Source: Candidatus Micrarchaeota archaeon (GTDB taxonomy: Archaea; Micrarchaeota; Micrarchaeia; Norongarragalinales; Norongarragalinaceae). From it: a DNA stretch of 64,000 nucleotides. A program made the translations under genes and the position numbers. The notes beneath the pieces were generated by a model. It searched no databases, was not told where the DNA came from, and saw only the letters and a program-made list of their open reading frames with translations. The DNA lies in NCBI GenBank assembly GCA_016207165.1, contig JACQQD010000008.1, positions 14,602-78,601 of the forward strand, read 5' to 3'. This document shows, in pieces, positions 1 through 17,432 of this stretch. Position 1 is the stretch's first letter; each line of letters begins with the position of its first letter.

Positions 1-631
1 CGGTGAGGTATTTCTTGAAGTTGTCCTTGGCGAATCCGGGTCCGGCCACCACGATTTTTTCCTTTCCTTCCAGGGTTTTCGCGATTTCAGCGAAGAAGGT
101 TTTCGTGGCTTCTTCAAACGCTTTGGGGTCTTTCTTGGAACCGCGGAAACTCATTTCTCCGAGAAACGTTAGTCCCTGCAACTGAAGTTCCGCTGGAATG
201 GCTTGGTGCTCGTCCATGACGATGAGAAATGCTTTGACGTGCTTGGATTTCTTCTTGGCTTCTTGAAGCAGAGCCCAGTGATAGGCGGAGAGTTTTTTGT
301 GGATTTTGACGCGTTCGTGTAGATCCACGTCAAGGGTGTGGTGGGATCCAATGGAAACGAATTCTTCGGGGGTCCCGCTTTCGATGACTCCGGTCACGCG
401 GAGTTTAAGCGCGCTTTGAGCGAACTCGATTTGCTCGGCGCGGATTTTCAGGTGGACTTTCTTTTTCTCTCCGGAATCCTTTTCCACGCCTTCGACTTTG
501 AAGCGTCGGAAAGATGTGCCTTCCACTCCGTCGCCGGGCTCCACGATTTTCTGCAAGTACCACAAGTCTTCCACGCACTGGGGCTCGACTTTCAGCCAGC
601 CTTCTTCTGGGTTTTGGGAAATGACTTTCAT
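1..631 (-). CDS. pelA: Pelota/Dom34 mRNA surveillance protein (3' end runs off the window)
   Basis: Not in the ORF track because there is no stop in the window. Manual translation from ATG 631 gives MKVISQNPEEGWLKVEPQCVEDLWYLQKIVEPGD...LRVTGVI...GSHHTLDV...IVVAGPGFAKDNFKKYL, which are pelota motifs. Confidence 0.93.
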   Translation of the reverse strand, partial: MKVISQNPEEGWLKVEPQCVEDLWYLQKIVEPGDGVEGTSFRRFKVEGVEKDSGEKKKVHLKIRAEQIEFAQSALKLRVTGVIESGTPEEFVSIGSHHTLDVDLHERVKIHKKLSAYHWALLQEAKKKSKHVKAFLIVMDEHQAIPAELQLQGLTFLGEMSFRGSKKDPKAFEEATKTFFAEIAKTLEGKEKIVVAGPGFAKDNFKKYLT

Positions 632-697
632 GGTTTTCAGTCAACCGGTGCTTTTTATTGTGGCGACGCCAGCTTTAATTTGCGTGTTTTTGACGTT

Positions 698-8477: not shown

Positions 8478-8513
8478 GCATGGACTTGGGGGGGCCACGG
8501 AAATAAAACCTGC

Positions 8514-8900
8514 TTACGGCGGGTTTCTTTTAAGGGATTTCTTCACGCATTCCAAGAGCTGTTTTCCGGCTTCGTCCCACTGGATGTAGGCGCTGTTGGG
8601 GTTGACTTGGGAGCTGTGAGCAATTTGGCCGAAAAAACCGAGTTGAAAGCCCGTCTGGTCGGCGACGATTTCCTGCAACGTTTCCCTGTTTAGCTCTTGG
8701 CGTGTCGCGTCCAAGACGTGGTGAAGCGGGGTTCCAGGTCGCGCGCTTTGCATGATTTTTTTTCGCAGTTTTTCCAGGTCCAACCGATTTGGATGGAATT
8801 CGATTTGGACGGTGGTGTTTCCATTCCACGTGGTCTCGGAGATTTTTTGGATGTGGCCGGAGGCGTCCGTCAACCCGTACTTTTCGAGCAACTCGTGCAT
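8514..8900 (-). CDS. Hypothetical protein
   Basis: 128-aa ORF filling the gap downstream of tRNA-Ile. Confidence 0.55.
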   Translation of the reverse strand: MHELLEKYGLTDASGHIQKISETTWNGNTTVQIEFHPNRLDLEKLRKKIMQSARPGTPLHHVLDATRQELNRETLQEIVADQTGFQLGFFGQIAHSSQVNPNSAYIQWDEAGKQLLECVKKSLKRNPP

Positions 8901-8915
8901 GACGTAATCAATCGG

Positions 8916-9011
8916 ATGGGCCTGGAGGGATTTAGGAACCCGGACCGCGGGAACCCAGGTTCCCCCAGTCCTTGGTAACCCCGACCCCTCCTGTTTTCAT
9001 GTGCGAATTGT
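8916..9011 (-). repeat. Stem-loop mini-element A plus duplicated tRNA-Ile 3' end
   Basis: ATGGGCCTGGAGGGATTT at 8916-8933 is identical to 9012-9029; the intervening GC-rich hairpin is related to elements at 29420 and 61537. Confidence 0.8.
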
Positions 9012-9012
9012 A

Positions 9013-9131
9013 TGGGCCTGGAGGGATTTGAACCCTCGGCCACCAGCTTTCCTAGCCAGCGCAGAGGGCGAAACCGTCCTTTGCGGTCGTATAAGACTGG
9101 CGCTCTAAAAACCAGGCTAAGCTACAGGCCC
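9013..9131 (-). tRNA. tRNA-Ile(UAU) with 41-nt intron at position 37/38 (intron 9049-9089)
   Basis: Acceptor GGGCCTG/CAGGCCC-A; D arm GCTT/GAGC; anticodon arm CCAGT-CT-TAT-A|A-GCTGG; T arm GAGGG-TTCAAAT-CCCTC; BHB-like central helix CTTA/TAGG with AAA bulge. Confidence 0.92.
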
Positions 9132-9234
9132 GATGCGTATTTTTTGTGGGGCGCTAGGTTTTTAGTTGGGTGGCTTGGCGGGTGTTGGGCTGCAGGCCGG
9201 GACGTATATTAATTGGGCCGGTTTGGTTTTTTCC

Positions 9235-9732
9235 ATGGAGTTTGAGCGGTTGCACGCCAAGGACTTTGTGACGTTGGCGTCGGGGGCGTTGGGGTTTTTG
9301 GCGGTTTTCTTCGCGGTCTCCAGCTACTTCGTGGCGGCGTTGTTTGTGGCGTTGGCGGCGGTTTTGGACGCGTTGGATGGGCGGCTCGCGCGTTGGGAGG
9401 GTAAAGCCAACGCGTTCGGCCGGGAATTGGATTCGTTGTCGGATGCGGTGGCGTTTGGCGTGGCGCCGGCGTTTGCCGCGTTTTACTTGCAGGTCTTTTC
9501 GCCGTGGGTGTGGGTGTACGCCGCGTCGGCCGTCGTTTTTTTGGCGGCGGTGCTGGTGAGGCTGGCGCGGTTTAATTTGTATGCCGAAAAAAAAGTTTAC
9601 TTTGGGTTGCCCAGTCCCGCGGCCGCGGTTTTGCTGTTGGTGTTGGCGCCGGTGTTCGGCGCGTACTCGCCGGTGGCGTTTTTGGTGTTGGCGTACTTGA
9701 TGTTGGCGGATTTCTCGTTCAGGAAGCGCTGA
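9235..9732 (+). CDS. pssA: CDP-alcohol phosphatidyltransferase (PssA/archaetidylserine synthase-like)
   Basis: DALDGRLAR...FGRELDSLSDAVAFGVAPA motif, RLARFN, YFGLPSP. Confidence 0.88.
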   Translation: MEFERLHAKDFVTLASGALGFLAVFFAVSSYFVAALFVALAAVLDALDGRLARWEGKANAFGRELDSLSDAVAFGVAPAFAAFYLQVFSPWVWVYAASAVVFLAAVLVRLARFNLYAEKKVYFGLPSPAAAVLLLVLAPVFGAYSPVAFLVLAYLMLADFSFRKR

Positions 9733-9808
9733 AAAAAAGGAGTGCGGCGACCAGCATGCTGATGAGCATGAACATGTCCGCGCCTTGGAATCCCGGGTAA
9801 TTCAACAT
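9719..9808 (-). CDS. 29-aa membrane microprotein MLNYPGFQGADMFMLISMLVAALLFFSAS
   Basis: Manual translation; paralog of 14890-14973 with synonymous differences in the shared NYPGFQ motif. Confidence 0.7.
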   Translation of the reverse strand: MLNYPGFQGADMFMLISMLVAALLFFSAS

Positions 9809-9838
9809 GATTTTTTTTGGTTTACTTCGAAGAGTTAG

Positions 9839-10570
9839 TTAAATGTTTTGGCTGAAGGATTCCAAAAGTCCGTTGACCCACTGCACGGAAATGCCGTGGC
9901 GGGCGGCGTAGGTGGCGGAGAGGCTTTTGGGAATCATGCCTCCGGAAATGATTTGGGTGTCAATGAGTTGCTGGACTTGGGTTTTGTTCACGGTTTGAAG
10001 CACGCGTTTTCGGGTGGCGTCGGTGTAGATGCCGGGGACGTCGGAGGCCATGACGAGTTTTTGGGCGTCCAGGGCCACGGCGATTTGCGCGGCGGCGTGG
10101 TCGGCGTTGACGTTGTAGGTTTGGCTTCCGTCGTATGCGAGGCACGGCAGGATGACGGGTCCTTTTTGCAGGAAGGCGTGGATGGCGGCGTGGTTGACGT
10201 TGGTGATGGTGCCGACGAATCCGTAGTCGTAGTCGGACTCCATTTTTTTGGCGGACAAAACGCCGTCCAAATACGTGTGTTGGATGCCTTGTTGTTCGAG
10301 GAAATCGCCTAAGCGGAATCCGACGCGTCGAACCGTGTTCTGGACGACGTCAAGCGTGGCCTCGTCCGTGACGCGGATGCCGTCGTGGGTCTTGGGTTTA
10401 ATGCCGAGGCGCAGGAGTTCGGCGTCGATTTGTTTTCCGGCGCCGTGCACGTAGACGACGCGCCTGTTTTTTTGGTGGACGCACGCGATTTGTTCGGCGG
10501 TTTTTGGCAACTGTTCGTTGGACAAGAGCTTGCCGCTGAGTTTGACTACGGTTACGTCAGGAAAGTGCAT
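9839..10570 (-). CDS. argB: Acetylglutamate kinase
   Basis: VVKLSG, VHGAGKQI, GIRVTD, YNVNADHAA, SGGMIPK. Confidence 0.93.
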   Translation of the reverse strand: MHFPDVTVVKLSGKLLSNEQLPKTAEQIACVHQKNRRVVYVHGAGKQIDAELLRLGIKPKTHDGIRVTDEATLDVVQNTVRRVGFRLGDFLEQQGIQHTYLDGVLSAKKMESDYDYGFVGTITNVNHAAIHAFLQKGPVILPCLAYDGSQTYNVNADHAAAQIAVALDAQKLVMASDVPGIYTDATRKRVLQTVNKTQVQQLIDTQIISGGMIPKSLSATYAARHGISVQWVNGLLESFSQNI

Positions 10571-11495
10571 GGTGAATCAATCCGGTTTGTTCGTTGATTC
10601 CGAAGCGGCGGTTCATGTTTTGGACGGCTTGGCTGGCGGCTCCTTTGCCGAGGTTGTCGATGCTGCAAATCACGACCAGGCAGCCGCGGTCAAGCGCGAA
10701 GCCACCGAGAACGGCGTGGTGGGTGTGTTGGGTGTCGCGGAGGTTGGGCGGCTCGTCCTGGATGCGGATGAGGGGTTGGTTTTGGTAAGCGGCTTGGTAG
10801 GCGTTCTGGACGTCGGATTTTGTGACGCGGGGTTGGAGGAAGGCGTGGATGGTGCACAGCATGCCTCGGTAGACCGGTAGCACGTGGGGCGTGAAGTGGA
10901 TGGGTGCGGAAAGGAATTGCTGGATTTCGGGTTCGTGGCGGTGGCCTGTGACGTGGTAGGGCCACGCGTTGTCGCGGATTTTTTCCTGGTAGTTTTGTTC
11001 CAGGGTTTTTTTGCCGGCGCCGCTGTACCCGCTTTTGCCGTCAATGACGGCTTTCTCCAATAGTCCGGCGTCGTCCAGGGGTTTTAGGGCCAAGAGGCTG
11101 GCGGTGGCATAGCATCCGGGGTTGGCGGTGATGCGGTTTTTGGTTTTTGGGAATAGTTCGGGTAGGCCGTAATCGGCTTTTTCGGGGTGGGTGTGGGTTT
11201 GCTGGTACGTGGCTTGGTATGTTTCTTGGTTTTGGAAGCGAAAATCGGGGCCCAAGTCAATGAGGGGTGAGTCAAGCATTTTGGCCCATTGCATGCCGGT
11301 GCTGGCAGGGCCGCATAAAAAGGCCAAGTCCAGTTTTTCGTCGTTGATGGTCTGTGGCGTCCAAACGGAATTTGCGTCTCCGGTGGAATGCATGACGGTG
11401 ACTTGGACGCCGGGGTGCTGGTGGAGGATGGACAATAGTTCTTGGGCGACGATGCCGGAGGTGCCGATGACGCCGACTTTTTTCACGGCTGGCAC
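10557..11495 (-). CDS. argC: N-acetyl-gamma-glutamyl-phosphate reductase
   Basis: YGLPEL, ANPGCYAT, SGYSGAG, HRHEPEI, DNLGKGAASQAVQNMN. Confidence 0.95.
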   Translation of the reverse strand: MPAVKKVGVIGTSGIVAQELLSILHQHPGVQVTVMHSTGDANSVWTPQTINDEKLDLAFLCGPASTGMQWAKMLDSPLIDLGPDFRFQNQETYQATYQQTHTHPEKADYGLPELFPKTKNRITANPGCYATASLLALKPLDDAGLLEKAVIDGKSGYSGAGKKTLEQNYQEKIRDNAWPYHVTGHRHEPEIQQFLSAPIHFTPHVLPVYRGMLCTIHAFLQPRVTKSDVQNAYQAAYQNQPLIRIQDEPPNLRDTQHTHHAVLGGFALDRGCLVVICSIDNLGKGAASQAVQNMNRRFGINEQTGLIHHALS

Positions 11496-12580
11496 TCTCC
11501 GAGTATTTGGACGGCGTCGTCCAAGGTTTTTCCTTCGATGGTCAACGGTGGAAGCAAGCGCAGGGTTTCGTTGTGGCAGACGCTGACGAGGACGCCGCGG
11601 GCTTGGGCGTTTTGCTGGATTTTTTTGGCGTGGGGGTGGTCGGCGCCGAGCATGAGCCCCATGCCGCGCGGCTTCAGTCCGATGGATTCTAGTTTTTGTG
11701 TCAGGTTTTTGTGGGTTGCTTTTGTTCGGGCGTGCAGGTGCTGGTTTTTCATGACGTCGATGACGGCCAACGCCGCCGCACAGCTGACCGCGTTGCCGCC
11801 GAAGGTGGACCCGTGCGCGCCGGGGGAGAAGTCCAGGTCTTCGCGGTACAGGACGGCTCCAAGAGGCAGGCCGTTGGCCAGGGGTTTGGCGGTGGCCACG
11901 ACGTCGGGGGCGATGCCGAAATGCTGGAAGGCAAACCAGTTTCCGGTGCGGTACGCGGTTTGCACTTCATCGAGGACCAACAGCGCGTCGTTTTTTTCGC
12001 AGATTTCCGCGGCGTGTTTGAGGTAATCGCTGTCGGGAAGGTGGATGCCGCCTTCGCCTTGGATGGGTTCTACCACGAAGGCGGCGGTGTCTTTGGTGAC
12101 GGCGTCTTGCAGGGCGTCCGCGTCGTTGAAAGGCACGTGCGTGACGTGGGGTAAAAGCGGCTCGAATCCTTGGCGGTAGGTGGAGTGCGTCAGGGATAAG
12201 GCGCCCAGGGTTCGGCCGTGAAAGCCTTTGTGGCAGGCCACGAGGTGTTTTGATTTTTTGCGGGAGAGCTTGATGGCGGTTTCCATGCTTTCGGTGCCGG
12301 AGTTGGTTAGAAAACAGCATGACGTGCCGGATAGTTCTGTTAGGGTTTCGGCGAGTTTCAGTTGCGTGTCTTGGATGTGGACGTTGGAGGCGTTGACCAT
12401 TTGGGTGCATTGGCGTTGGATGGCTTTCGCTACGTGGGGGTTGGCGTGTCCCACGATGGCGGTTCCAATGCCTCCCGTCAAGTCGGTGAAGCGTTGGCCG
12501 TTTTCGTCCCAGAGGGTGGCGTTTTGTGCTTTGGTCATCGTCAGGCCGGTGCGGTTAAACGCGTTGGACAGAAAGCGCAT
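11483..12580 (-). CDS. argD: Acetylornithine aminotransferase
   Basis: FHGRTLG, EPIQGEGG, DEVQT, AKPLANG (PLP lysine), HGSTFGGN. Confidence 0.93.
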   Translation of the reverse strand: MRFLSNAFNRTGLTMTKAQNATLWDENGQRFTDLTGGIGTAIVGHANPHVAKAIQRQCTQMVNASNVHIQDTQLKLAETLTELSGTSCCFLTNSGTESMETAIKLSRKKSKHLVACHKGFHGRTLGALSLTHSTYRQGFEPLLPHVTHVPFNDADALQDAVTKDTAAFVVEPIQGEGGIHLPDSDYLKHAAEICEKNDALLVLDEVQTAYRTGNWFAFQHFGIAPDVVATAKPLANGLPLGAVLYREDLDFSPGAHGSTFGGNAVSCAAALAVIDVMKNQHLHARTKATHKNLTQKLESIGLKPRGMGLMLGADHPHAKKIQQNAQARGVLVSVCHNETLRLLPPLTIEGKTLDDAVQILGECQP

Positions 12581-12586
12581 GGAGCC

Positions 12587-13720
12587 TCACGTCGTGTAGG
12601 CGGTGTTGAATGCGACGTATTTGGTGGTCAGGTCGCAGCCGTAGAAGGTGGCGGTGGTGGCGCCCATGTCTAAGTCCACGTTGATGCGGACGGGGTTGGT
12701 CGGCGCGTTCCAGGCAAACGGTTGGATGGCGTGGTTGTGAAAGACCAGGGCGTCGTTGACGTGGATTTTGACGGTTTGGGGGTTAAAGTCGGTGTTCGCG
12801 GCGCCCAGGGCGGCCACCAGGCGGCCGACGTTGGGTTCGGTTCCGCAAAACGCGGTTTGAACCAGGGCGTTGTGGAGGATGGCTTTCGCCACGGCCTGGG
12901 CTTGTTGCATGTGGCAGGCGTTTTTGATGGTCAGTTCAAAGGTTTGTTGCGTTCCTTCTCCGTCGGCGACAATGGATTTCGCCAACTTCAGGCAGACTTT
13001 CTTGAGGACGTGCTGGAACGCGGTTGGGTCCACGGGTCCGGCCAGGCCGTTGGCCAACAGCATGACGGTGTCGTTGGTGCTTTGGCAGCCGTCTACGCTG
13101 ATGCGGTTGAAAGTTTCGTTGACCGCGGTTTTCAGGTGCTCGTGTGCGTCGGTGGCAGCGATTTTCGCGTCAGTGAAAACAAAGCAGAGCATGGTGGCCA
13201 TGGCGGGGTTGATCATGCCTGCGCCTTTGGCCACCGCCACGATGCGCGCCGGTCCGACGCGCGCCGAGGCGTACTTGAGGGTTTGGTCCGTGGTTTGAAT
13301 GGCGGTCGTGGCGTTGAGCCAAGCGGAAGCGGTGTTGTTCAGGCAGATGCGTTCCAACCCGGATTCAATGGCGGAGACGTCCAGGGGTTTGCCGATGATG
13401 CCGGTGCTGGCCAGGGCGACGTGGCGGGGGTTGACGTGGAATTGTTTGGCGGCGTGTTGCGCGATGCGGTGGCAGTCCGCCATTCCTTGGGAGCCGTTGG
13501 CCGCGTTGGCGTTGCCGGAGTTCACGACGACCAGTTGCGCGGTGCCTTGCAGGCGCTGGTTGTATTGGTTGGGGGGCGCGGCGAAGCGGTTGGCGGTGTT
13601 CACGCAGGCAAACGACGCGGGGGTGGTGCTGTAAAAGACGGCGAGGTCTCTGGATTTTTTTCGGAGTCCTACGTGTTCGCCGCCGCACAGGATGCCTTGG
13701 ATGGGTTGGTCTTCAAACAT
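12587..13720 (-). CDS. argJ: Ornithine acetyltransferase
   Basis: NSGNANA, STGIIG, KGAGMINPAMATML autocleavage motif, VDGCQSTND, DGEG. Confidence 0.95.
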   Translation of the reverse strand: MFEDQPIQGILCGGEHVGLRKKSRDLAVFYSTTPASFACVNTANRFAAPPNQYNQRLQGTAQLVVVNSGNANAANGSQGMADCHRIAQHAAKQFHVNPRHVALASTGIIGKPLDVSAIESGLERICLNNTASAWLNATTAIQTTDQTLKYASARVGPARIVAVAKGAGMINPAMATMLCFVFTDAKIAATDAHEHLKTAVNETFNRISVDGCQSTNDTVMLLANGLAGPVDPTAFQHVLKKVCLKLAKSIVADGEGTQQTFELTIKNACHMQQAQAVAKAILHNALVQTAFCGTEPNVGRLVAALGAANTDFNPQTVKIHVNDALVFHNHAIQPFAWNAPTNPVRINVDLDMGATTATFYGCDLTTKYVAFNTAYTT

Positions 13721-14882
13721 GGCTTTCTCCTTTTTCTTGGTGGTAGGCGTGGCGGAAGGGTGTGCCGGTTTTGACGCGTTCAAGGGACCGGTTGACGCTG
13801 TGGAGTTCGTCGGTCATGGCGGCTTTCAGTTTTTTGGGGTCAAACGCCATGTCGTGCACCCAGAGCGCCGTCATTTCGAGGCATGCGTCCATGGTGGCAA
13901 ACGCCTCCAACAGGGTGGCCTTGGTTTCCTGGAAGTCGCGGTGGTAGCCCGACGGCAGGTTTTGTGTGGTGGCGGCGACGTGGGCGTACGCGGCGGAAAG
14001 CGCGGCGGTCCTGGCGCGCACCAGTTCCATGACGTCCGGGTTTTTCTTGTGGGGCATCAGCGAACTGCCGGTGCAAAGCTGGGAGGGTTTTTGAAGGAAC
14101 CCGTATTCGGTGGTGGAGTAAAGGAGGATGTCGCAGGAAAGCTTGTTGAGCGTCAAGGCGACTTGGTGGAGTGCGGAGAGGGTAAACAACTCGATTTTGC
14201 CGCGGCTGTTCTGGCAGTACAGCGTGTTGTTTTGGACTTTGGTAAATCCCAGTTCTTGGGCTTCTTTTTGGCGGTTTAGGTCTAGGCTGGATCCGAATCC
14301 GGCGGCGGAGCCCAGCGGGCTTTGGTCGTTGAGCGTCAAGGCGGCTTGCAGAACTAAGACGTCGTCTTCTAGGCTTTCGTGGAAGGACTCCAGCCACCTC
14401 GCTGTGGAGTAGGCCATGGCTTTTTGCATGTGCGTGTAGCCGGGCATGGGGTAGTCGGTCTTGGTTTTGGCCAAAATCGTGGCTTGGAGTTGGCGGATTT
14501 GATCTTGGACTTGCTGGAGCTGGTCTTTGGCGTACAAGCGAAGCATGGTCAGCGCCTGGTCGTTGCGGGAACGGCCGGCCTGGATGCGACGGCCTGTGTC
14601 GCCGAGTTTCTCGGTGAGGAATTCCTCAATGGCGGTGTGGCTGTCCTCTTGTTTTTGGGTGATGGAAAAGGTTCCGTTCTGCACGCGTGCGGAAAGTTCG
14701 TCCAGTGCGTTTTGGACTTGAGCGTTTTCATCCGCCGTCAGAACGCCGACGTCTTTGAGCGCGTGGGCGTGCGCACGGGTGCCGGCAATGTCGTAGGGAA
14801 GCAGCGGCTGGTCCAAGAGGTGGCCGTGGCCCACGGTGAACGCCATGACTTTTTCCGATACGGGTTGGTTCGTCCAAAGCAT
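13713..14882 (-). CDS. argH: Argininosuccinate lyase (short C-terminus)
   Basis: GRSRNDQ, MPGYTHMQ, SPLGSAAG, TGSSLMPHKKNPDVMEL, GYHRDFQ. Confidence 0.95.
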   Translation of the reverse strand: MLWTNQPVSEKVMAFTVGHGHLLDQPLLPYDIAGTRAHAHALKDVGVLTADENAQVQNALDELSARVQNGTFSITQKQEDSHTAIEEFLTEKLGDTGRRIQAGRSRNDQALTMLRLYAKDQLQQVQDQIRQLQATILAKTKTDYPMPGYTHMQKAMAYSTARWLESFHESLEDDVLVLQAALTLNDQSPLGSAAGFGSSLDLNRQKEAQELGFTKVQNNTLYCQNSRGKIELFTLSALHQVALTLNKLSCDILLYSTTEYGFLQKPSQLCTGSSLMPHKKNPDVMELVRARTAALSAAYAHVAATTQNLPSGYHRDFQETKATLLEAFATMDACLEMTALWVHDMAFDPKKLKAAMTDELHSVNRSLERVKTGTPFRHAYHQEKGESHV

Positions 14883-14889
14883 GGGGAGG

Positions 14890-14973
14890 TTAACCCACCA
14901 AAAGCGCGATGGCGGCGGCAAAGGCGAACATCATGAATACGTCGACGGTTTGAAATCCGGGGTAGTTCCACAT
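14890..14973 (-). CDS. 27-aa membrane microprotein MWNYPGFQTVDVFMMFAFAAAIALLVG
   Basis: GGTGAG Shine-Dalgarno-like sequence just before ATG; overlaps the argG 3' end; paralog of 9719-9808. Confidence 0.72.
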   Translation of the reverse strand: MWNYPGFQTVDVFMMFAFAAAIALLVG

Positions 14974-16193
14974 GGTCTCACCTGGTTGGCGGTGACGGTC
15001 TGCAAGGCGTAAATCTTGCAGAAGCCCTCGCTGTGTTTCTGGTTGAAAGTGCTTTGCTGGGTGTACGTGGCCAAGGCGTGTTGGTGCAGGGAGTTCTCGG
15101 AGTGGCGCGCGATGACTTGCGCGTGGCCCTTGTATAGTTTGACGTCCACCCATCCTGAAACCGGCGTTTGCGCATCGGCGAGGTACGTTTTCAGGGAGGC
15201 CATCAAAGGCGAGAACCACTTGCCTTGGAACGTCATTTCTCCGAACGCCGCGTCGGCGTGGCGCTTGAAATCCAATTCGTCTTTGGTCAGCACCATTTTC
15301 TCCAAGTCAAAGTGCGCCTTGAGGATCACGGCGGCCGCAGGGCATTCGTAGACTTCGCGGCTTTTGAATCCCACGACGCGGTCCTCCACGTGGTCAAAGA
15401 CGCCGATGCCGTGAAGGCCAGCCAATTCGTTGAGGTGCTGGATCACGGAAAGCGTGCCGGAAACGGTTTGGGTGGCCGTCTCCAGTTCAACGGGCGTGCC
15501 GTGCTCGAAATGAAGTTTGACGGTTTCCGCTTGGTCGGGGGCCGCTTCGGCGGGGTTGACCCATTCAAAGGCATCCTGTGGCGGTGCGACGGCCGGGTTT
15601 TCCAGGGGCCCGCACTCGATGCTGCGGCCCCACAAGTTGGCGTCCACGCTGTACGTGCTTTGCTTGGATACGGCAATTCCGCGTTGGTGGGCGTATTTTT
15701 CCTCCACGTCGCGGGAAAGCTGCAAGTCGCGGATGGGCGCCAGTACCTGGAGGCTTGCGTCCAAGGAATTCACGGCCAACTCAAAGCGCAGTTGGTCGTT
15801 GCCTTTTCCCGTGGAACCGTGAGCCACCGCGTCCGCGCCCACCGCGTGCGCCACGTCCACCAGGTGCTTGGCGACCAGGGGGCGGGCCAACGCGGTGGAG
15901 TTGGGGTAATGGTTTTGGTAGGTGCCGTTGGCCCAGATGCTGTACGTGACGAATTCGTCGGCGAATTCCTGTTTGACGTCGTGCACCACGGCGTTTGTGG
16001 CCCCCAGTGCCAGCGCTTTTTGTTTGGCGGCGTCCAAGTGCTGGTCGTTGTACTCGCGGGCGCCCAAGTCGGCGGTAAACGTGCATACTTCCATGCCTTT
16101 TTCCAGGAACAATTTCAGCAGACAGCTCGTGTCCAAGCCTCCCGAGTAGGCCAAAACGACTTGGTCGGCGTCGTAGTCGGGAAGTTCAATCAT
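14931..16193 (-). CDS. argG: Argininosuccinate synthase
   Basis: VLAYSGGLDTS, HGSTGKGNDQLRFE, YSVDANLWGRSIE, KSREVYE; start could be 16217. Confidence 0.97.
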   Translation of the reverse strand: MIELPDYDADQVVLAYSGGLDTSCLLKLFLEKGMEVCTFTADLGAREYNDQHLDAAKQKALALGATNAVVHDVKQEFADEFVTYSIWANGTYQNHYPNSTALARPLVAKHLVDVAHAVGADAVAHGSTGKGNDQLRFELAVNSLDASLQVLAPIRDLQLSRDVEEKYAHQRGIAVSKQSTYSVDANLWGRSIECGPLENPAVAPPQDAFEWVNPAEAAPDQAETVKLHFEHGTPVELETATQTVSGTLSVIQHLNELAGLHGIGVFDHVEDRVVGFKSREVYECPAAAVILKAHFDLEKMVLTKDELDFKRHADAAFGEMTFQGKWFSPLMASLKTYLADAQTPVSGWVDVKLYKGHAQVIARHSENSLHQHALATYTQQSTFNQKHSEGFCKIYALQTVTANQVRPCGTTPDFKPSTYS

Positions 16194-16231
16194 AGGCGTT
16201 TCGCATCGCGTTTTCATTTAAAAACCGTTTC

Positions 16232-16276
16232 GGACAAAAAGAAACAATTTTAAACACTTTTCGTCCAATTCTGGAC
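16232..16276. promoter_or_regulatory. Divergent argG/ACT-gene promoter region with inverted repeats
   Basis: GGACAAAAAG (16232-16241) and CTTTTCGTCC (16257-16266) form a 9/10 inverted pair around TATA-like TTTTAAA; also GTCCA-ATTC-TGGAC. Confidence 0.45.
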
Positions 16277-16277
16277 T

Positions 16278-16901
16278 ATGGCATCCAGTGTGTCCAAGCG
16301 CGTCGAATCGGCGTTGGAGGAGAAACCGTTTCTGTTGGAAGCGCTCTCGCAGGGCTACGCGAACCTGTCGGCGGTGGCCCGCGTCTTGCAGAAGCAGGTG
16401 GGCGGGTCCGAGGAGGCCGTGCGCGCGGCCGTCAAGCGCTTTTCCGCGTCGCGGCTTCGGCAGCGCCGCGCGGACGAAAAGAAAGTGTTGGAGGTGCTCT
16501 CGCACAGCCGGCTGTCGCTGTCGACGAAGGTCAACGTCCTGGTCGTGGAGCGGACGCCGGAGACGGAGGCCAAGGCCGCGTCGTTTTCCGAGAAGACCCG
16601 GGCGCTGGTCAAGGAAGAAAGCGGCATGACGCTGGTGGTGGATGCGGCGTACTTTCGGGAAAGCCAGAAGCTTTTTTCGCGGTCGGAGATTTTGACGGTC
16701 AACGAGGATTTGGTGGTTTTGACGTTGATTTCTTCGCCGGTGGTTGAAGCGGTGCCCGGCGTGGTCGCCTTTCTGACGGCGCAGATGGCGCGGCACAACA
16801 TCAATTTGAAGGAATTTTGGTCGTCGTACACCGACACGTTGTTTTTCGTGGAGAAAAAAGACGCGTCCAAGGCGTACGAGGTGCTTTCGGCTTTACTGTA
16901 G
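16278..16901 (+). CDS. ACT-domain protein, putative amino-acid-responsive regulator
   Basis: N-terminal PFLLEALSQGYANLSAVAR helical domain plus C-terminal ACT-like PGVVAFLTAQMARHNINLKEFWSSYTD. Confidence 0.8.
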   Translation: MASSVSKRVESALEEKPFLLEALSQGYANLSAVARVLQKQVGGSEEAVRAAVKRFSASRLRQRRADEKKVLEVLSHSRLSLSTKVNVLVVERTPETEAKAASFSEKTRALVKEESGMTLVVDAAYFRESQKLFSRSEILTVNEDLVVLTLISSPVVEAVPGVVAFLTAQMARHNINLKEFWSSYTDTLFFVEKKDASKAYEVLSALL

Positions 16902-17432
16902 TTCGGTTCGCTCCAAGGCGGTATAGGCGGGCCCTGTGGCCTGGAGGCGGCTTTCGTAAAGCGTGACGAAGCGGACCGCAAATTCTGGGAACGTGGTTTC
17001 CGCGTTTTGGGCCAGCCACGCCTGGAGCCTTTCCTTGTTCTGTGCGCTTTTGACGCGCGCCAGAGTCACGTGCGGGTGGAAGGGCTGGTCGTTGCGGTAA
17101 CCCAGGGCGTCGGCGAGTCGTTGTTGCAGGGCGATGACGTCTTTTTTTCCTTTGTCAAATCCGGTCCAGACCACGCGGATGTGGTCGGGTTTGGGAAATG
17201 CGCCCAAGCCAAAAAGCCGTGCGTCGAAGGCTTTATGATGGACGGCGTGGAGGAGTTCGGCTTTTTCGCGGACCTCGTTGGGGTCAAGTTCGCCGAAGAA
17301 CGCGAGGGTGGCGTGCAACTGCTTCTTGGCGGGGTAGGTGGCGGAAACCCTGGTTTGCCGGATTTCCGACTGCACGTCGGCGAGTCGTTGACGGAGGGCG
17401 TCATCGATTTCCAGCGCCAGGAAACAACGCAT
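16893..17432 (-). CDS. thpR: RNA 2',3'-cyclic phosphodiesterase (2H family)
   Basis: MRCFLAL start, HATLAFFG and FHPHVTLAR HxT motifs. Confidence 0.93.
   Translation of the reverse strand: MRCFLALEIDDALRQRLADVQSEIRQTRVSATYPAKKQLHATLAFFGELDPNEVREKAELLHAVHHKAFDARLFGLGAFPKPDHIRVVWTGFDKGKKDVIALQQRLADALGYRNDQPFHPHVTLARVKSAQNKERLQAWLAQNAETTFPEFAVRFVTLYESRLQATGPAYTALERTELQ

What the first reader, a model, noticed from the sequence alone, without database searches (positions are those of the whole stretch)
9719..14973. Two paralogous NYPGFQ membrane microproteins hidden in the arginine operon
Seen: MWNYPGFQTVDVFMMFAFAAAIALLVG (14890-14973, between argG and argH, with GGTGAG SD) and MLNYPGFQGADMFMLISMLVAALLFFSAS (9719-9808, after argB). 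They share MxNYPGFQxxDxFM plus one TM helix. Differences in the motif are synonymous (AAC/AAT, CCC/CCG, TTT/TTC), which indicates selection on the protein. Both are below gene-caller cutoffs. Neither contains Arg, so an Arg-attenuation leader role is unlikely. Inference: an undescribed microprotein family co-transcribed with arg genes, perhaps a membrane tether for the enzymes or a transporter modulator.
Basis: partly seen in the sequence, partly recalled or inferred. Interest (0 to 1): 0.8.

Follow-up and report, generated by a model that had tools for sequence, protein, structure and literature searches.

The report
Paired membrane microproteins in arginine operon
Two tiny genes hidden in the arginine-synthesis operon of an uncultured Micrarchaeota archaeon encode real, conserved one-helix membrane peptides, but their constant companion in related genomes is an amino-acid-sensing regulator gene, not the arginine enzymes.

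Summary
Both small ORFs exist at the stated coordinates, on the minus strand: 9719-9808 (29 aa) and 14890-14973 (27 aa). They are real family members. A profile built only from relatives finds them at E 4.9e-5 and 4.9e-9 among 30,118 six-frame segments of the genome; the next best is E 1.5.

The family is tiny and unnamed. It has about a dozen distinct 27-36-aa peptides, from one Micrarchaeota genus-level clade and groundwater-type metagenome contigs. The frame is never broken in the main (A) type. Variation in the motif sits at third codon positions (4, 3 and 9 of 10 sites at codon positions 1, 2 and 3). AlphaFold2 gives one 20-residue helix.

The arginine link is particular to this genome. 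None of 10 related loci had arg genes, while 9 of 10 had a divergent DUF7523(HTH-like)+ACT gene about 200 nt away. That regulator belongs to a clade whose other members sit divergently from argG.

All three genomes of the genus carry two paralogues, A then B, behind that promoter.

Function is inferred, not shown. I read them as amino-acid-status-controlled accessory peptides of a membrane protein. They match no Pfam or NCBIfam model.

I rate this a new variant of a known kind (small membrane proteins), of moderate interest.

The parts
14890..14973 (-). sORF2: 27-aa type-A-like microprotein MWNYPGFQTVDVFMMFAFAAAIALLVG (stop included). It overlaps the argG 3' end by 43 nt.
   Evidence: Independent family profile E 4.9e-9. 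Nearest to type A of relatives (BLOSUM score 76).
14977..14982 (-). GGTGAG Shine-Dalgarno-like site, 3 nt before the sORF2 ATG.
   Evidence: Read. Its function is inferred.
9719..9808 (-). sORF1: 29-aa paralogue MLNYPGFQGADMFMLISMLVAALLFFSAS (stop included). It is the last ORF of the operon, and its 3' end overlaps the convergent CDP-alcohol phosphatidyltransferase gene by 14 nt.
   Evidence: Independent family profile E 4.9e-5. Nearest to P0011, a B-like member. The exact peptide is present, unnamed, in a public collection.
14931..16193 (-). argG (argininosuccinate synthase). The ORF runs to 16217, but the ATG at 16193 (MIELPDY...) lies about 27 nt after the TATA-like box and is the likelier start.
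   Evidence: Pfam PF00764 and PF20979. Start read; the start choice is inferred.
13713..14882 (-). argH (argininosuccinate lyase). Its ATG at 14882 lies 7 nt after the sORF2 stop.
   Evidence: Pfam Lyase_1. Start read.
12587..13783 (-). argJ
   Evidence: Pfam ArgJ, E 1.7e-113.
11483..12580 (-). argD-type class-III aminotransferase
   Evidence: Pfam Aminotran_3.
10557..11495 (-). argC
   Evidence: Pfam semialdehyde dehydrogenase domains.
9839..10570 (-). argB
   Evidence: Pfam AA_kinase.
16205..16276 (.). Back-to-back promoter block shared with relatives. It holds a TATA-like TTTTTAAA (16217-16224, minus strand) before argG, a TTTTAAAC (about 16247-16254, plus strand) before the regulator gene, and the inverted repeat GTCCA-N4-TGGAC (16263-16276) abutting the regulator's ATG.
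   Evidence: 78% identical to the block that precedes the stand-alone sORF in G001. Alignment. Sequence. Promoter and operator roles are inferred.
16278..16901 (+). Divergent DUF7523 (HTH-like N-terminus) + ACT-domain gene, the putative amino-acid-responsive regulator of the promoter block.
   Evidence: Pfam DUF7523 at residues 5-70 and ACT_7 at 141-204. Orthologue next to the sORF in 9 of 10 related loci. Tree.

Best explanation
The two ORFs are genuine paralogous genes for single-helix membrane microproteins.

The family is clade-restricted. Its peptides are 27-36 aa and carry an invariant interfacial motif, (W/L/F)-(N/D/E)-(H/Y)-P-(G/A)-F-x3-D, followed by a 16-19-residue hydrophobic stretch. 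The main type has almost no Lys or Arg.

In its usual form the family is a small transcription unit. An A-type peptide comes first (M[DE]LPLWN[HY]PGFESVD...NPxL, 34 aa), often followed by a more divergent B-type peptide. The unit is driven by a promoter placed back-to-back with that of a DUF7523(HTH-like)+ACT regulator gene.

In this genome the same promoter drives argG - sORF2 (A-like) - argHJDCB - sORF1 (second paralogue). The peptides are therefore made together with the arginine enzymes.

Most likely mechanism (inferred): the ACT regulator senses an amino acid and sets transcription from the shared promoter block. The peptides insert into the membrane. Their conserved N-terminal motif, at the membrane interface, binds and stabilises or modulates a larger membrane protein, most plausibly a transporter tied to amino-acid supply. 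This is how KdpF, MgtS and AcrZ act in bacteria and sP36 in Methanosarcina.

Shown: the ORFs, family membership, coding selection, the helix prediction, the linkage to the regulator, and the paired arrangement.

Inferred: translation, membrane insertion, regulation by the ACT protein, and the target.
For: - ORFs and motif.
- Family membership, from an independent profile: E 4.9e-9 and 4.9e-5, next best 1.5.
- Further members:
  - G001 and G002.
  - 8 of 37 metagenome pattern hits, giving 4 distinct peptides.
  - 2 of 26 genome-collection hits, both titled Candidatus Micrarchaeota.
  - 6 of 7 hits at E<=1e-3 among 1.84 billion representatives; one of the 6 is sORF1 itself.
- Coding selection:
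  - All 6 distinct A-type relatives have exactly 29 codons from W to the stop, with no frameshift or stop.
  - pN is below pS in 27 of 28 pairs.
  - In the 10 motif codons, the numbers of variable sites are 4, 3 and 9 at codon positions 1, 2 and 3.
- A conserved TATA-like box and a GAGG site 10-12 nt before the ATG lie upstream in relatives, and conservation ends after the stop.
- AlphaFold2 on the 9-sequence alignment gives a helix at residues 11-30, mean pLDDT 91.
- Linkage: the ACT gene is divergent in 9 of 10 related loci, and arg genes are in 0 of 10.
- Regulator family:
  - ACT genes sit divergently from argG in 13 of the 16 ArgG-bearing genomes of the order.
  - Another G000 paralogue is divergent from a leuA/cimA-like gene plus an ilvE-like gene (the names come from my reading of the N-termini).
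  - In the tree, the sORF-linked regulators (6 rows, support 100/99), the G000 regulator and seven regulators of a neighbouring family (six of them argG-linked) form one clade (94/94).
- Pairing: a second paralogue lies downstream on the same strand in G001 and G002. B-type G001 versus G002 over 28 codons: 11 differ synonymously only and 9 change the residue.
- Analogy: bacterial small membrane proteins (passages of PMC12648545) and sP36 (abstract of PMC10714827).
Against: - There is no expression or proteomic evidence of any kind.
- sORF1 has no Shine-Dalgarno-like site.
- The G000 copies lack both the M[DE]LPL head and the NPxL tail that are conserved in A-type relatives, so they may have drifted or work differently.
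- The B type decays in some lineages. It is truncated to 23 aa in L104 and L105, frameshifted in L097 and L116, and not seen in L107 or L119. The pair is therefore not obligatory.
- No membrane partner is identified, and no transporter gene is conserved beside the peptides.
- The hydrophobic stretch is short and there is no positive-inside signal, so topology and even full membrane spanning are uncertain.
- The regulator's DNA binding and ligand are untested. A divergent position is only circumstantial evidence of control.
- The family is known from about a dozen sequences of one narrow clade, so conservation spans little evolutionary depth.
Confidence: 0.55

Rival explanations
1. The peptides are membrane-active effectors rather than subunits. 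They could be a type-I-toxin-like or phenol-soluble-modulin/bacteriocin-like pair that perturbs a membrane, either the cell's own or that of the host archaeon on which a DPANN cell lives.
For: - The peptides are very short and hydrophobic, with no recognisable partner gene.
- They come as two related peptides in one unit, as two-peptide bacteriocins do (recalled).
- The family is confined to one clade.
- Records carrying the same peptides are titled Candidatus Micrarchaeota, a DPANN lineage. That many DPANN live attached to hosts is recalled.
Against: - No antitoxin RNA, immunity gene, leader peptide or export gene was seen next to the unit in any of the loci mapped.
- The peptides are acidic and lack Lys and Arg, unlike most pore-forming peptides (recalled).
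- Constitutive linkage to an amino-acid-type regulator, and in G000 to arginine enzymes, fits housekeeping better than attack.
Confidence: 0.12
2. The peptides are substrates or decoys of a membrane processing enzyme. P-G-F followed by a hydrophobic helix resembles the PGF-CTERM signal cut by archaeosortase A. G|F-x3-D/E followed by a helix resembles a prepilin (class III) signal cut by an A24 peptidase. The product would be a roughly 20-24-aa processed peptide.
For: - The P-(G/A)-F and D positions are invariant.
- G000 encodes an exosortase/archaeosortase-family protein (TIGR04178 signature, 35.6 bits against a cut-off of 23).
- G000 also encodes an A24 prepilin peptidase (43.5 bits).
Against: - No peptide matched any NCBIfam or Pfam model at E<=10. 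Those libraries should include the PGF-CTERM, pilin and N-methylation-site models; I did not check that they are present.
- There is no cargo domain before the PGF and no basic cluster after the helix, both of which define archaeosortase signals (recalled definition; sequences).
- There is no Lys or Arg before the G/A, as in archaeal class III signals (recalled).
- The G000 archaeosortase fits no known subtype.
- The C-terminal helix signals I could find in the genome look different: ELPxF...RRR and TLWYV...KKK.
- G002 gave no archaeosortase hit, though that genome is only 82% complete.
Confidence: 0.08
3. In this genome the ORFs matter only as translated spacers, with the product irrelevant. 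They would couple translation of argG to argH or carry the operon's terminator.
For: - sORF2 is wedged between argG and argH with overlapping or abutting signals.
- The G000 copies have lost the head and tail conserved elsewhere.
Against: - The amino-acid motif is kept through synonymous changes between the two G000 copies and against relatives.
- Related genomes keep the ORF as a stand-alone gene with nothing to couple to.
- In the neighbouring family, argG and argH abut directly without any such ORF.
Confidence: 0.1

Closest known systems
Bacterial small membrane proteins that bind larger membrane proteins: KdpF (29 aa), MgtS (31 aa), AcrZ (49 aa). Passages read in PMC12648545.
   Same: - Similar size, with a single predicted helix.
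- Encoded inside or beside the operon whose physiology they serve, as kdpF is in kdpFABC.
- Expression is tied to a nutrient-sensing regulator.
   Different: - No sequence similarity to any Pfam or NCBIfam model.
- These are archaeal and clade-restricted.
- They come as a paralogous pair.
- No target gene lies next to them.
- They have an invariant N-terminal P-(G/A)-F...D motif.
- That KdpF also lacks Lys and Arg is recalled, not checked here.
Methanosarcina mazei sP36, a 61-aa protein that mediates inhibition of the ammonium transporter AmtB1 together with GlnK1. Abstract read in PMC10714827.
   Same: An archaeal small protein that links nitrogen or amino-acid status to a membrane transporter.
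   Different: - sP36 is a cytoplasmic protein that relocates to the membrane, not a hydrophobic helix.
- It is not homologous.
- Its partner is known.
PGF-CTERM / archaeosortase A sorting signal (definition recalled).
   Same: A P-G-F tripeptide directly followed by a hydrophobic helix. An archaeosortase-family gene is present in the genome.
   Different: - Here the motif is at the N-terminus of a free-standing peptide with no cargo.
- There is no basic tail.
- No model hit.
Type IV prepilin / class III signal peptides (definition recalled).
   Same: G/A followed by F, an acidic residue at +5 and a hydrophobic helix. An A24 peptidase is present.
   Different: - There is no basic residue before the presumed cut.
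- There is no domain after the helix; the mature peptide would be about 20-24 aa.
- No Pfam hit.

Membership tests
The WN[HY]P[GA]F-x3-D microprotein family defined here (no public name) | N-terminal motif (W/L/F)(N/D/E)(H/Y)P(G/A)F-x3-D followed directly by a 16-19-residue hydrophobic stretch; total length 27-36 aa. | tested here: met
   Both window ORFs have it. The independent profile gives E 4.9e-9 and 4.9e-5.
The WN[HY]P[GA]F-x3-D microprotein family defined here (no public name) | Transcribed from the promoter divergent to a DUF7523+ACT gene. | tested here: met
   The window promoter block 16205-16276 is 78% identical to the block before the G001 sORF. Here argG lies between the promoter and sORF2. 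The ACT gene is next to the sORF in 9 of 10 related loci.
The WN[HY]P[GA]F-x3-D microprotein family defined here (no public name) | M[DE]LPL head and NPxL-type tail of the A type. | tested here: not met
   Both G000 copies start directly at M-(W/L)-N and end without NPxx. G002's A copy also lacks the head.
PGF-CTERM archaeosortase signal | Match to the family model. | tested here: not met
   No NCBIfam hit at E<=10 for 3 of 3 peptides. HMMER filters drop most matches above about E 0.1.
PGF-CTERM archaeosortase signal | C-terminal position behind a secreted cargo domain, and a basic cluster after the helix (recalled definition). | tested here: not met
   The peptides start 1-6 residues before the motif. 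The 8 peptides counted contain no Lys or Arg.
PGF-CTERM archaeosortase signal | Cleavage by archaeosortase A. | not testable with these tools
   An unclassified exosortase/archaeosortase-family gene is present in G000 and G001. Cleavage needs biochemistry.
Class III (prepilin-like) signal peptide proteins | Match to the pilin or N-methylation-site models. | tested here: not met
   No Pfam or NCBIfam hit at E<=10.
Class III (prepilin-like) signal peptide proteins | A basic residue before the G/A cut site, and a folded domain after the helix (recalled definition). | tested here: not met
   H/Y-P precedes the G/A. The peptide ends 0-4 residues after the helix.
Known bacterial small membrane protein families (KdpF, MgtS, AcrZ, CydX and others) | Sequence similarity to the family model. 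| tested here: not met
   No Pfam or NCBIfam hit. The language-model look-alike search gave a best score of 0.79, below the level the tool calls meaningful.
Attenuation-type leader peptide | Lies upstream of the regulated genes and is enriched in the regulating amino acid. | tested here: not met
   There is no Arg in either peptide. One copy is internal to the operon and the other comes last. In relatives it is a stand-alone gene.

The most novel reading that the evidence does not exclude
The A/B peptide pair is a dedicated membrane output of an arginine-type HTH-ACT regulon in Micrarchaeota. The peptides arose inside, or were recruited into, an ancestral regulator | argG-argH unit, the arrangement G000 still shows. 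They were then kept, with regulator and promoter, after the arg genes left that locus in sister lineages. They would couple the cell's arginine status to a membrane process such as uptake of arginine or ornithine from the environment or a host cell. That would be a new kind of nutrient-status effector in DPANN archaea, and a documented case of a microprotein outliving the operon it was born in.
Probability: 0.15. Interest if true: 0.7.

Novelty: new variant of a known kind. Interest (0 to 1): 0.45.

Why it matters
Small membrane proteins are systematically missed by gene callers, and very few archaeal ones have a known role. This is a cleanly supported archaeal family, with coding selection, its own promoter and ribosome site, and a conserved partner gene. 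It comes from a DPANN lineage for which no functionally studied microprotein is known to me (not checked in the literature searches).

The context gives a concrete, testable handle. A putative amino-acid-sensing HTH-ACT regulator has a visible inverted repeat in a 70-nt shared promoter block, and in one genome that block also drives arginine biosynthesis.

The limits are real:
- The family is narrow.
- The organisms are uncultured.
- The function is only inferred.

The regulator family itself lies next to argG in 13 of 16 ArgG-bearing genomes of the order. It may be the more broadly useful lead.

Tried and rejected
I did not pad or resend it.
- Pfam and NCBIfam scans of three peptides gave nothing at E<=10.
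- The ESM Atlas look-alike search for the G001 A peptide gave a best score of 0.79, which is uninformative.
- Complex prediction of the G001 regulator (7-row alignment) with the A peptide (9-row alignment) returned 'no answer', score 0.00. This is no evidence either way.
- The look-up of sequencing runs listed no RNA holder. It listed only 4 DNA runs from one groundwater study, so nothing can be said on expression.
The contig or contigs holding P0009, P0010 and P0011 could therefore not be fetched.
- Chance matches discarded after inspection:
  - 4 of 7 places in the order-wide pattern search.
  - 24 of 26 genome-collection hits.
  - 29 of 37 metagenome hits.
  - The other sub-threshold profile hits in the 401-genome searches: those I inspected were fragments of long ORFs or lacked the motif, and the rest I did not inspect.
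  - P0012, a 476-aa repeat protein.
  - The G085 hit, which has an in-frame TGA and no ACT or arg gene nearby.
- I first read the G000 arg operon as a recent insertion or foreign acquisition at the sORF locus, because ArgG is only about 50% identical to those of G001 and G002. I dropped this reading. The G000 regulator is equally distant (52-53%), and regulator | argG is the common arrangement in the order.
- No third copy lies next to the UppS block on contig C5, which flanks the sORF in relatives.
- The Rfam scan of 8500-17000 at E<=0.1 found no RNA family over either ORF.
- The literature search for the motif strings and DUF7523 returned 0 papers. A search on Micrarchaeota, small protein and arginine biosynthesis returned nothing relevant among the 10 papers listed. 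Supplementary files were not consulted.

Full report
**Observation**

- 9719-9808: MLNYPGFQGADMFMLISMLVAALLFFSAS, 29 aa.
- 14890-14973: MWNYPGFQTVDVFMMFAFAAAIALLVG, 27 aa.

Pfam confirms the surrounding minus-strand genes as argG, argH, argJ, a class-III aminotransferase (argD type), argC and argB. The layout is:
- sORF2 starts 43 nt before the argG stop and ends 7 nt before the argH ATG. GGTGAG lies 3 nt upstream of its ATG.
- sORF1 starts 30 nt after argB and has no such site.
- The 3' end of sORF1 overlaps a convergent CDP-alcohol phosphatidyltransferase gene by 14 nt.

Contigs from three other runs of the same study cover both ORFs and the argG-to-regulator junction with no differences there. 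The arrangement is therefore not an assembly artefact. These runs are the same population, not independent evidence.

**More than chance**

- NYPGF occurs only twice in the six-frame translation of the whole assembly, both times here.
- I built a profile from 11 relatives, leaving out the two window ORFs. Searched against all 30,118 six-frame segments of at least 20 aa, it gave E 4.9e-9 for sORF2 and 4.9e-5 for sORF1. The next best segment scored E 1.5.

**The family**

| Search | Scope | Result |
|---|---|---|
| Motif pattern | 68 genomes of the order | 7 places: 3 real (G000 twice, G001), 4 inside long unrelated ORFs |
| Peptide profiles | two samples of 401 genomes (phylum and class) | only the three genomes of the genus (G000, G001, G002), plus one hit in G085 |
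| Motif pattern | 185,579-species genome collection | 26 stretches, 2 real |
| Motif pattern | JGI metagenome collection | 37 stretches, 8 real, 4 distinct peptides |
| Family profile | 1.84 billion representative proteins | 7 hits at E<=1e-3, 6 of them family (one is sORF1 itself) |

Details behind the table:
- The G085 hit carries an in-frame TGA and has no regulator or arg gene nearby, so I treat it as chance.
- The two real hits in the genome collection are in records titled Candidatus Micrarchaeota archaeon. Their peptides are identical to those of G001 and G002.
- The four metagenome peptides are MDLPLWNHPGFESVDGLMVVVGVMTLALLVNPAL, MELPLWNHPGFESVDGLMLLMLVFAAAWAFNPLL, MDLPLWNYPGFESVDVTLLLVLAASALLLVNPVI and MELPLWNHPGFESVDALMLVMFVFAAAWVFSPLL.
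- Several members are already in public protein collections, but none carries a name.
- No Pfam or NCBIfam model matches.
- No paper in the searchable library contains the motif strings or 'DUF7523'.

The family is real, undescribed as far as these searches reach, and very narrow.

**Coding evidence**

- The six distinct A-type relatives all have exactly 29 codons from the W to the stop, with no frameshift or internal stop.
- The proportion of synonymous differences exceeds the non-synonymous proportion in 27 of 28 pairs. The exception is L097 against L107, at 0.33 against 0.35.
- Within the 10 motif codons, 4 first, 3 second and 9 third positions vary.
- Upstream, relatives share a TATA-like CTTTTTAAAT and a GAGG 10-12 nt before the ATG. 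Downstream of the stop, conservation vanishes.
- AlphaFold2 on the 9-row alignment predicts one helix, residues 11-30 of the 34-aa form, with mean pLDDT 91.
- None of the eight A-type and G000 peptides contains Lys or Arg. Each has one to three acidic residues near the N-terminus.

**What the family is linked to**

- I tested 10 related loci with the G000 proteins. The DUF7523+ACT protein was found in 9, always divergent and about 200 nt from the sORF. The tenth locus is cut 75 nt past the sORF. No arg protein was found in any of the 10.
- The usual context is UppS, then the sORF convergent to it, then the divergent regulator.
- In G000 the UppS block lies on another contig and has no extra sORF copy beside it.
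- At the DNA level, G001 is collinear with the window only from 16205 rightwards. Collinearity therefore starts at the shared promoter block.
- The other 14 ArgG loci of the order have no small hydrophobic ORF on the argG strand next to argG.
- In two genomes of the neighbouring family, argG and argH abut directly.

**The arginine link is not empty, however**

- G001 and G002 have their own arg operon elsewhere. In G001 it reads argG, argF, argH, an M20 peptidase-type gene, argB, argD and argC. It has its own divergent DUF7523+ACT paralogue.
- Across the order, 13 of the 16 genomes with ArgG carry such a gene divergent from argG.
- G000 has four paralogues. One of them is divergent from a leuA/cimA-like gene plus an ilvE-like gene. 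Those two names rest on my reading of the N-terminal sequences.
- In a maximum-likelihood tree of 30 of these proteins, one clade (support 94/94) holds three groups, and their branching order within the clade is unresolved:
  - the six sORF-linked regulators (support 100/99);
  - the G000 regulator;
  - seven regulators of family f10 (six of them argG-linked).
- The argG-linked paralogues of G001 and G002 sit elsewhere, with that of G026 (midpoint root, for drawing only).
- So the sORF-linked regulator descends from, or is sister to, arg-operon regulators. The G000 layout (regulator | argG - sORF2 - argHJDCB - sORF1) may be close to the context in which the peptides first worked. That order of events is inference.

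**A second paralogue is the rule in the genus**

- With the wider profile, G001 and G002 each gave a second hit on the same strand downstream of the first.
  - G001: MAGKKSFWEHPAFRAADFGIVLAVLFALFWLLGTH, lying after an intervening peroxiredoxin gene.
  - G002: MASTAPSKTFFEHPAFHAADVGLMLAGLFALFWLIK, lying 165 nt after A.
- Between these two B-type copies, 28 codons were compared. Eleven differ only synonymously and 9 change the residue.
- In G000, sORF2 scores nearest to type A. sORF1 scores nearest to P0011, a B-like member. All three genomes therefore read promoter, then an A-like gene, then a second paralogue.
- P0010 (A-like) and P0011 (B-like) are both reported from NCBI with the same longest-contig length of 7,252 bases. 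This suggests, but does not prove, another adjacent pair.
- Against an obligatory pair, the B type is not always intact:
  - truncated to 23 aa in L104 and L105;
  - frameshifted in L097 and L116;
  - not found in L107 or L119;
  - L110 and L120 end too soon to tell.

**The promoter block**

Read, the 70-nt block holds:
- two opposed TATA-like boxes;
- an inverted repeat directly before the regulator's ATG. It reads GTCCA-N4-TGGAC at window 16263-16276, and GTCCAAATTTGGAC or a close variant of it in the relatives.

In G000 the minus-strand box is followed after about 27 nt by an ATG (16193, MIELPDY...), the likelier argG start. The N-terminus of the regulator (…GYANLSxxARxL…) looks like a helix-turn-helix. 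That is my reading; only DUF7523 and ACT_7 are tool calls. Its only hit in the PDB is weak, against an ACT-type hypothetical protein.

**Mechanism**

Shown:
- two conserved, coding, helix-forming microprotein genes;
- a clade-wide pairing with an HTH-like/ACT gene through a shared promoter block;
- co-orientation with the arginine operon in this genome only.

Inferred:
- The ACT protein senses an amino acid and controls the block.
- The peptides insert in the membrane.
- The invariant interfacial motif P-(G/A)-F...D contacts a larger membrane protein, as KdpF, MgtS and AcrZ do in bacteria (passages of PMC12648545) and as sP36 does functionally in Methanosarcina (abstract of PMC10714827).

I give about 0.9 to 'real coding family'. 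I give about 0.3 to the specific accessory-subunit or transporter-modulator role.

**Rivals**

- Membrane-active effector or toxin-like pair.
- Substrate or decoy of the genome's unclassified archaeosortase-family protein or its A24 peptidase. Both enzymes are present. The peptides, however, lack the cargo, basic tail, basic pre-site residue and model matches that define those signals.
- A mere translated spacer.

The regulator-peptide complex prediction gave no verdict and is not used as evidence.

**Verdict**

This is a new family within the known kind 'small membrane proteins', with an unusual and testable regulatory context. Interest is moderate.

Noticed in passing
window 16278-16901 (+); loci L133-L139, L143, L147, L150, L154-L156: DUF7523(HTH-like)+ACT genes sit divergently from argG in 13 of the 16 ArgG-bearing genomes of the order. 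G000 has four paralogues. One of them (C9:123991-124659, minus strand) is divergent from a leuA/cimA-like gene plus an ilvE-like gene. This looks like an undescribed family of archaeal amino-acid-operon regulators.
   Followed up: partly
window 16263-16276: The inverted repeat GTCCA-N4-TGGAC directly abuts the regulator's start codon. It is conserved as GTCCAAATTTGGAC, or a close variant of it, in the relatives. It is a candidate operator.
   Followed up: partly
window 9013-9131 (-): Rfam finds a 119-nt tRNA (54 bits), long enough to hold an intron. ARAGORN reported no tRNA in the same stretch. Contigs of three runs join 9038 to 9112, two of them with 29 other letters between. These are probably related tRNA genes of other organisms.
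   Followed up: no
G000 C6:14037-14795 (-) = L124:1456-2214: An exosortase/archaeosortase-family protein matches only the general signature model (TIGR04178, 35.6 bits) and no named subtype. Several G000 proteins end in possible sorting signals, such as DELPVF...RRRS (C11:135141-135701), PELPELF...RRPT (C12:9460-9918) and TLWYV...KKK (three genes on C9).
   Followed up: partly
window 16179-16193 (-) against the relatives' sORF start: G000 ArgG probably begins MIELPDY. The A-type peptides of relatives begin M[DE]LPLWN[HY]. The shared E-L-P could be chance. No other ArgG N-terminus examined has it: 0 of the 12 other loci examined.
   Followed up: partly
L129 (G001:C1:166000-185900): The G001 arg operon has a different make-up from that of G000. 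It has argF and an M20 peptidase-type (argE-like) gene and no argJ hit, and a long argB ORF of 431 aa. This suggests the linear rather than the cyclic acetyl route.
   Followed up: no
window 14310: All four runs' contigs read T where the window has G (in argH). It is the only difference reported across 8.5 kb.
   Followed up: no
L014:9266-9748 (-) and L107 about 250-690 (-): In G001 and in metagenome locus L107 a peroxiredoxin gene follows the A peptide. In G001 it separates A from B. In G000 the argHJDCB genes separate the two paralogues. The gap after A seems to accept different cargo in different lineages.
   Followed up: partly
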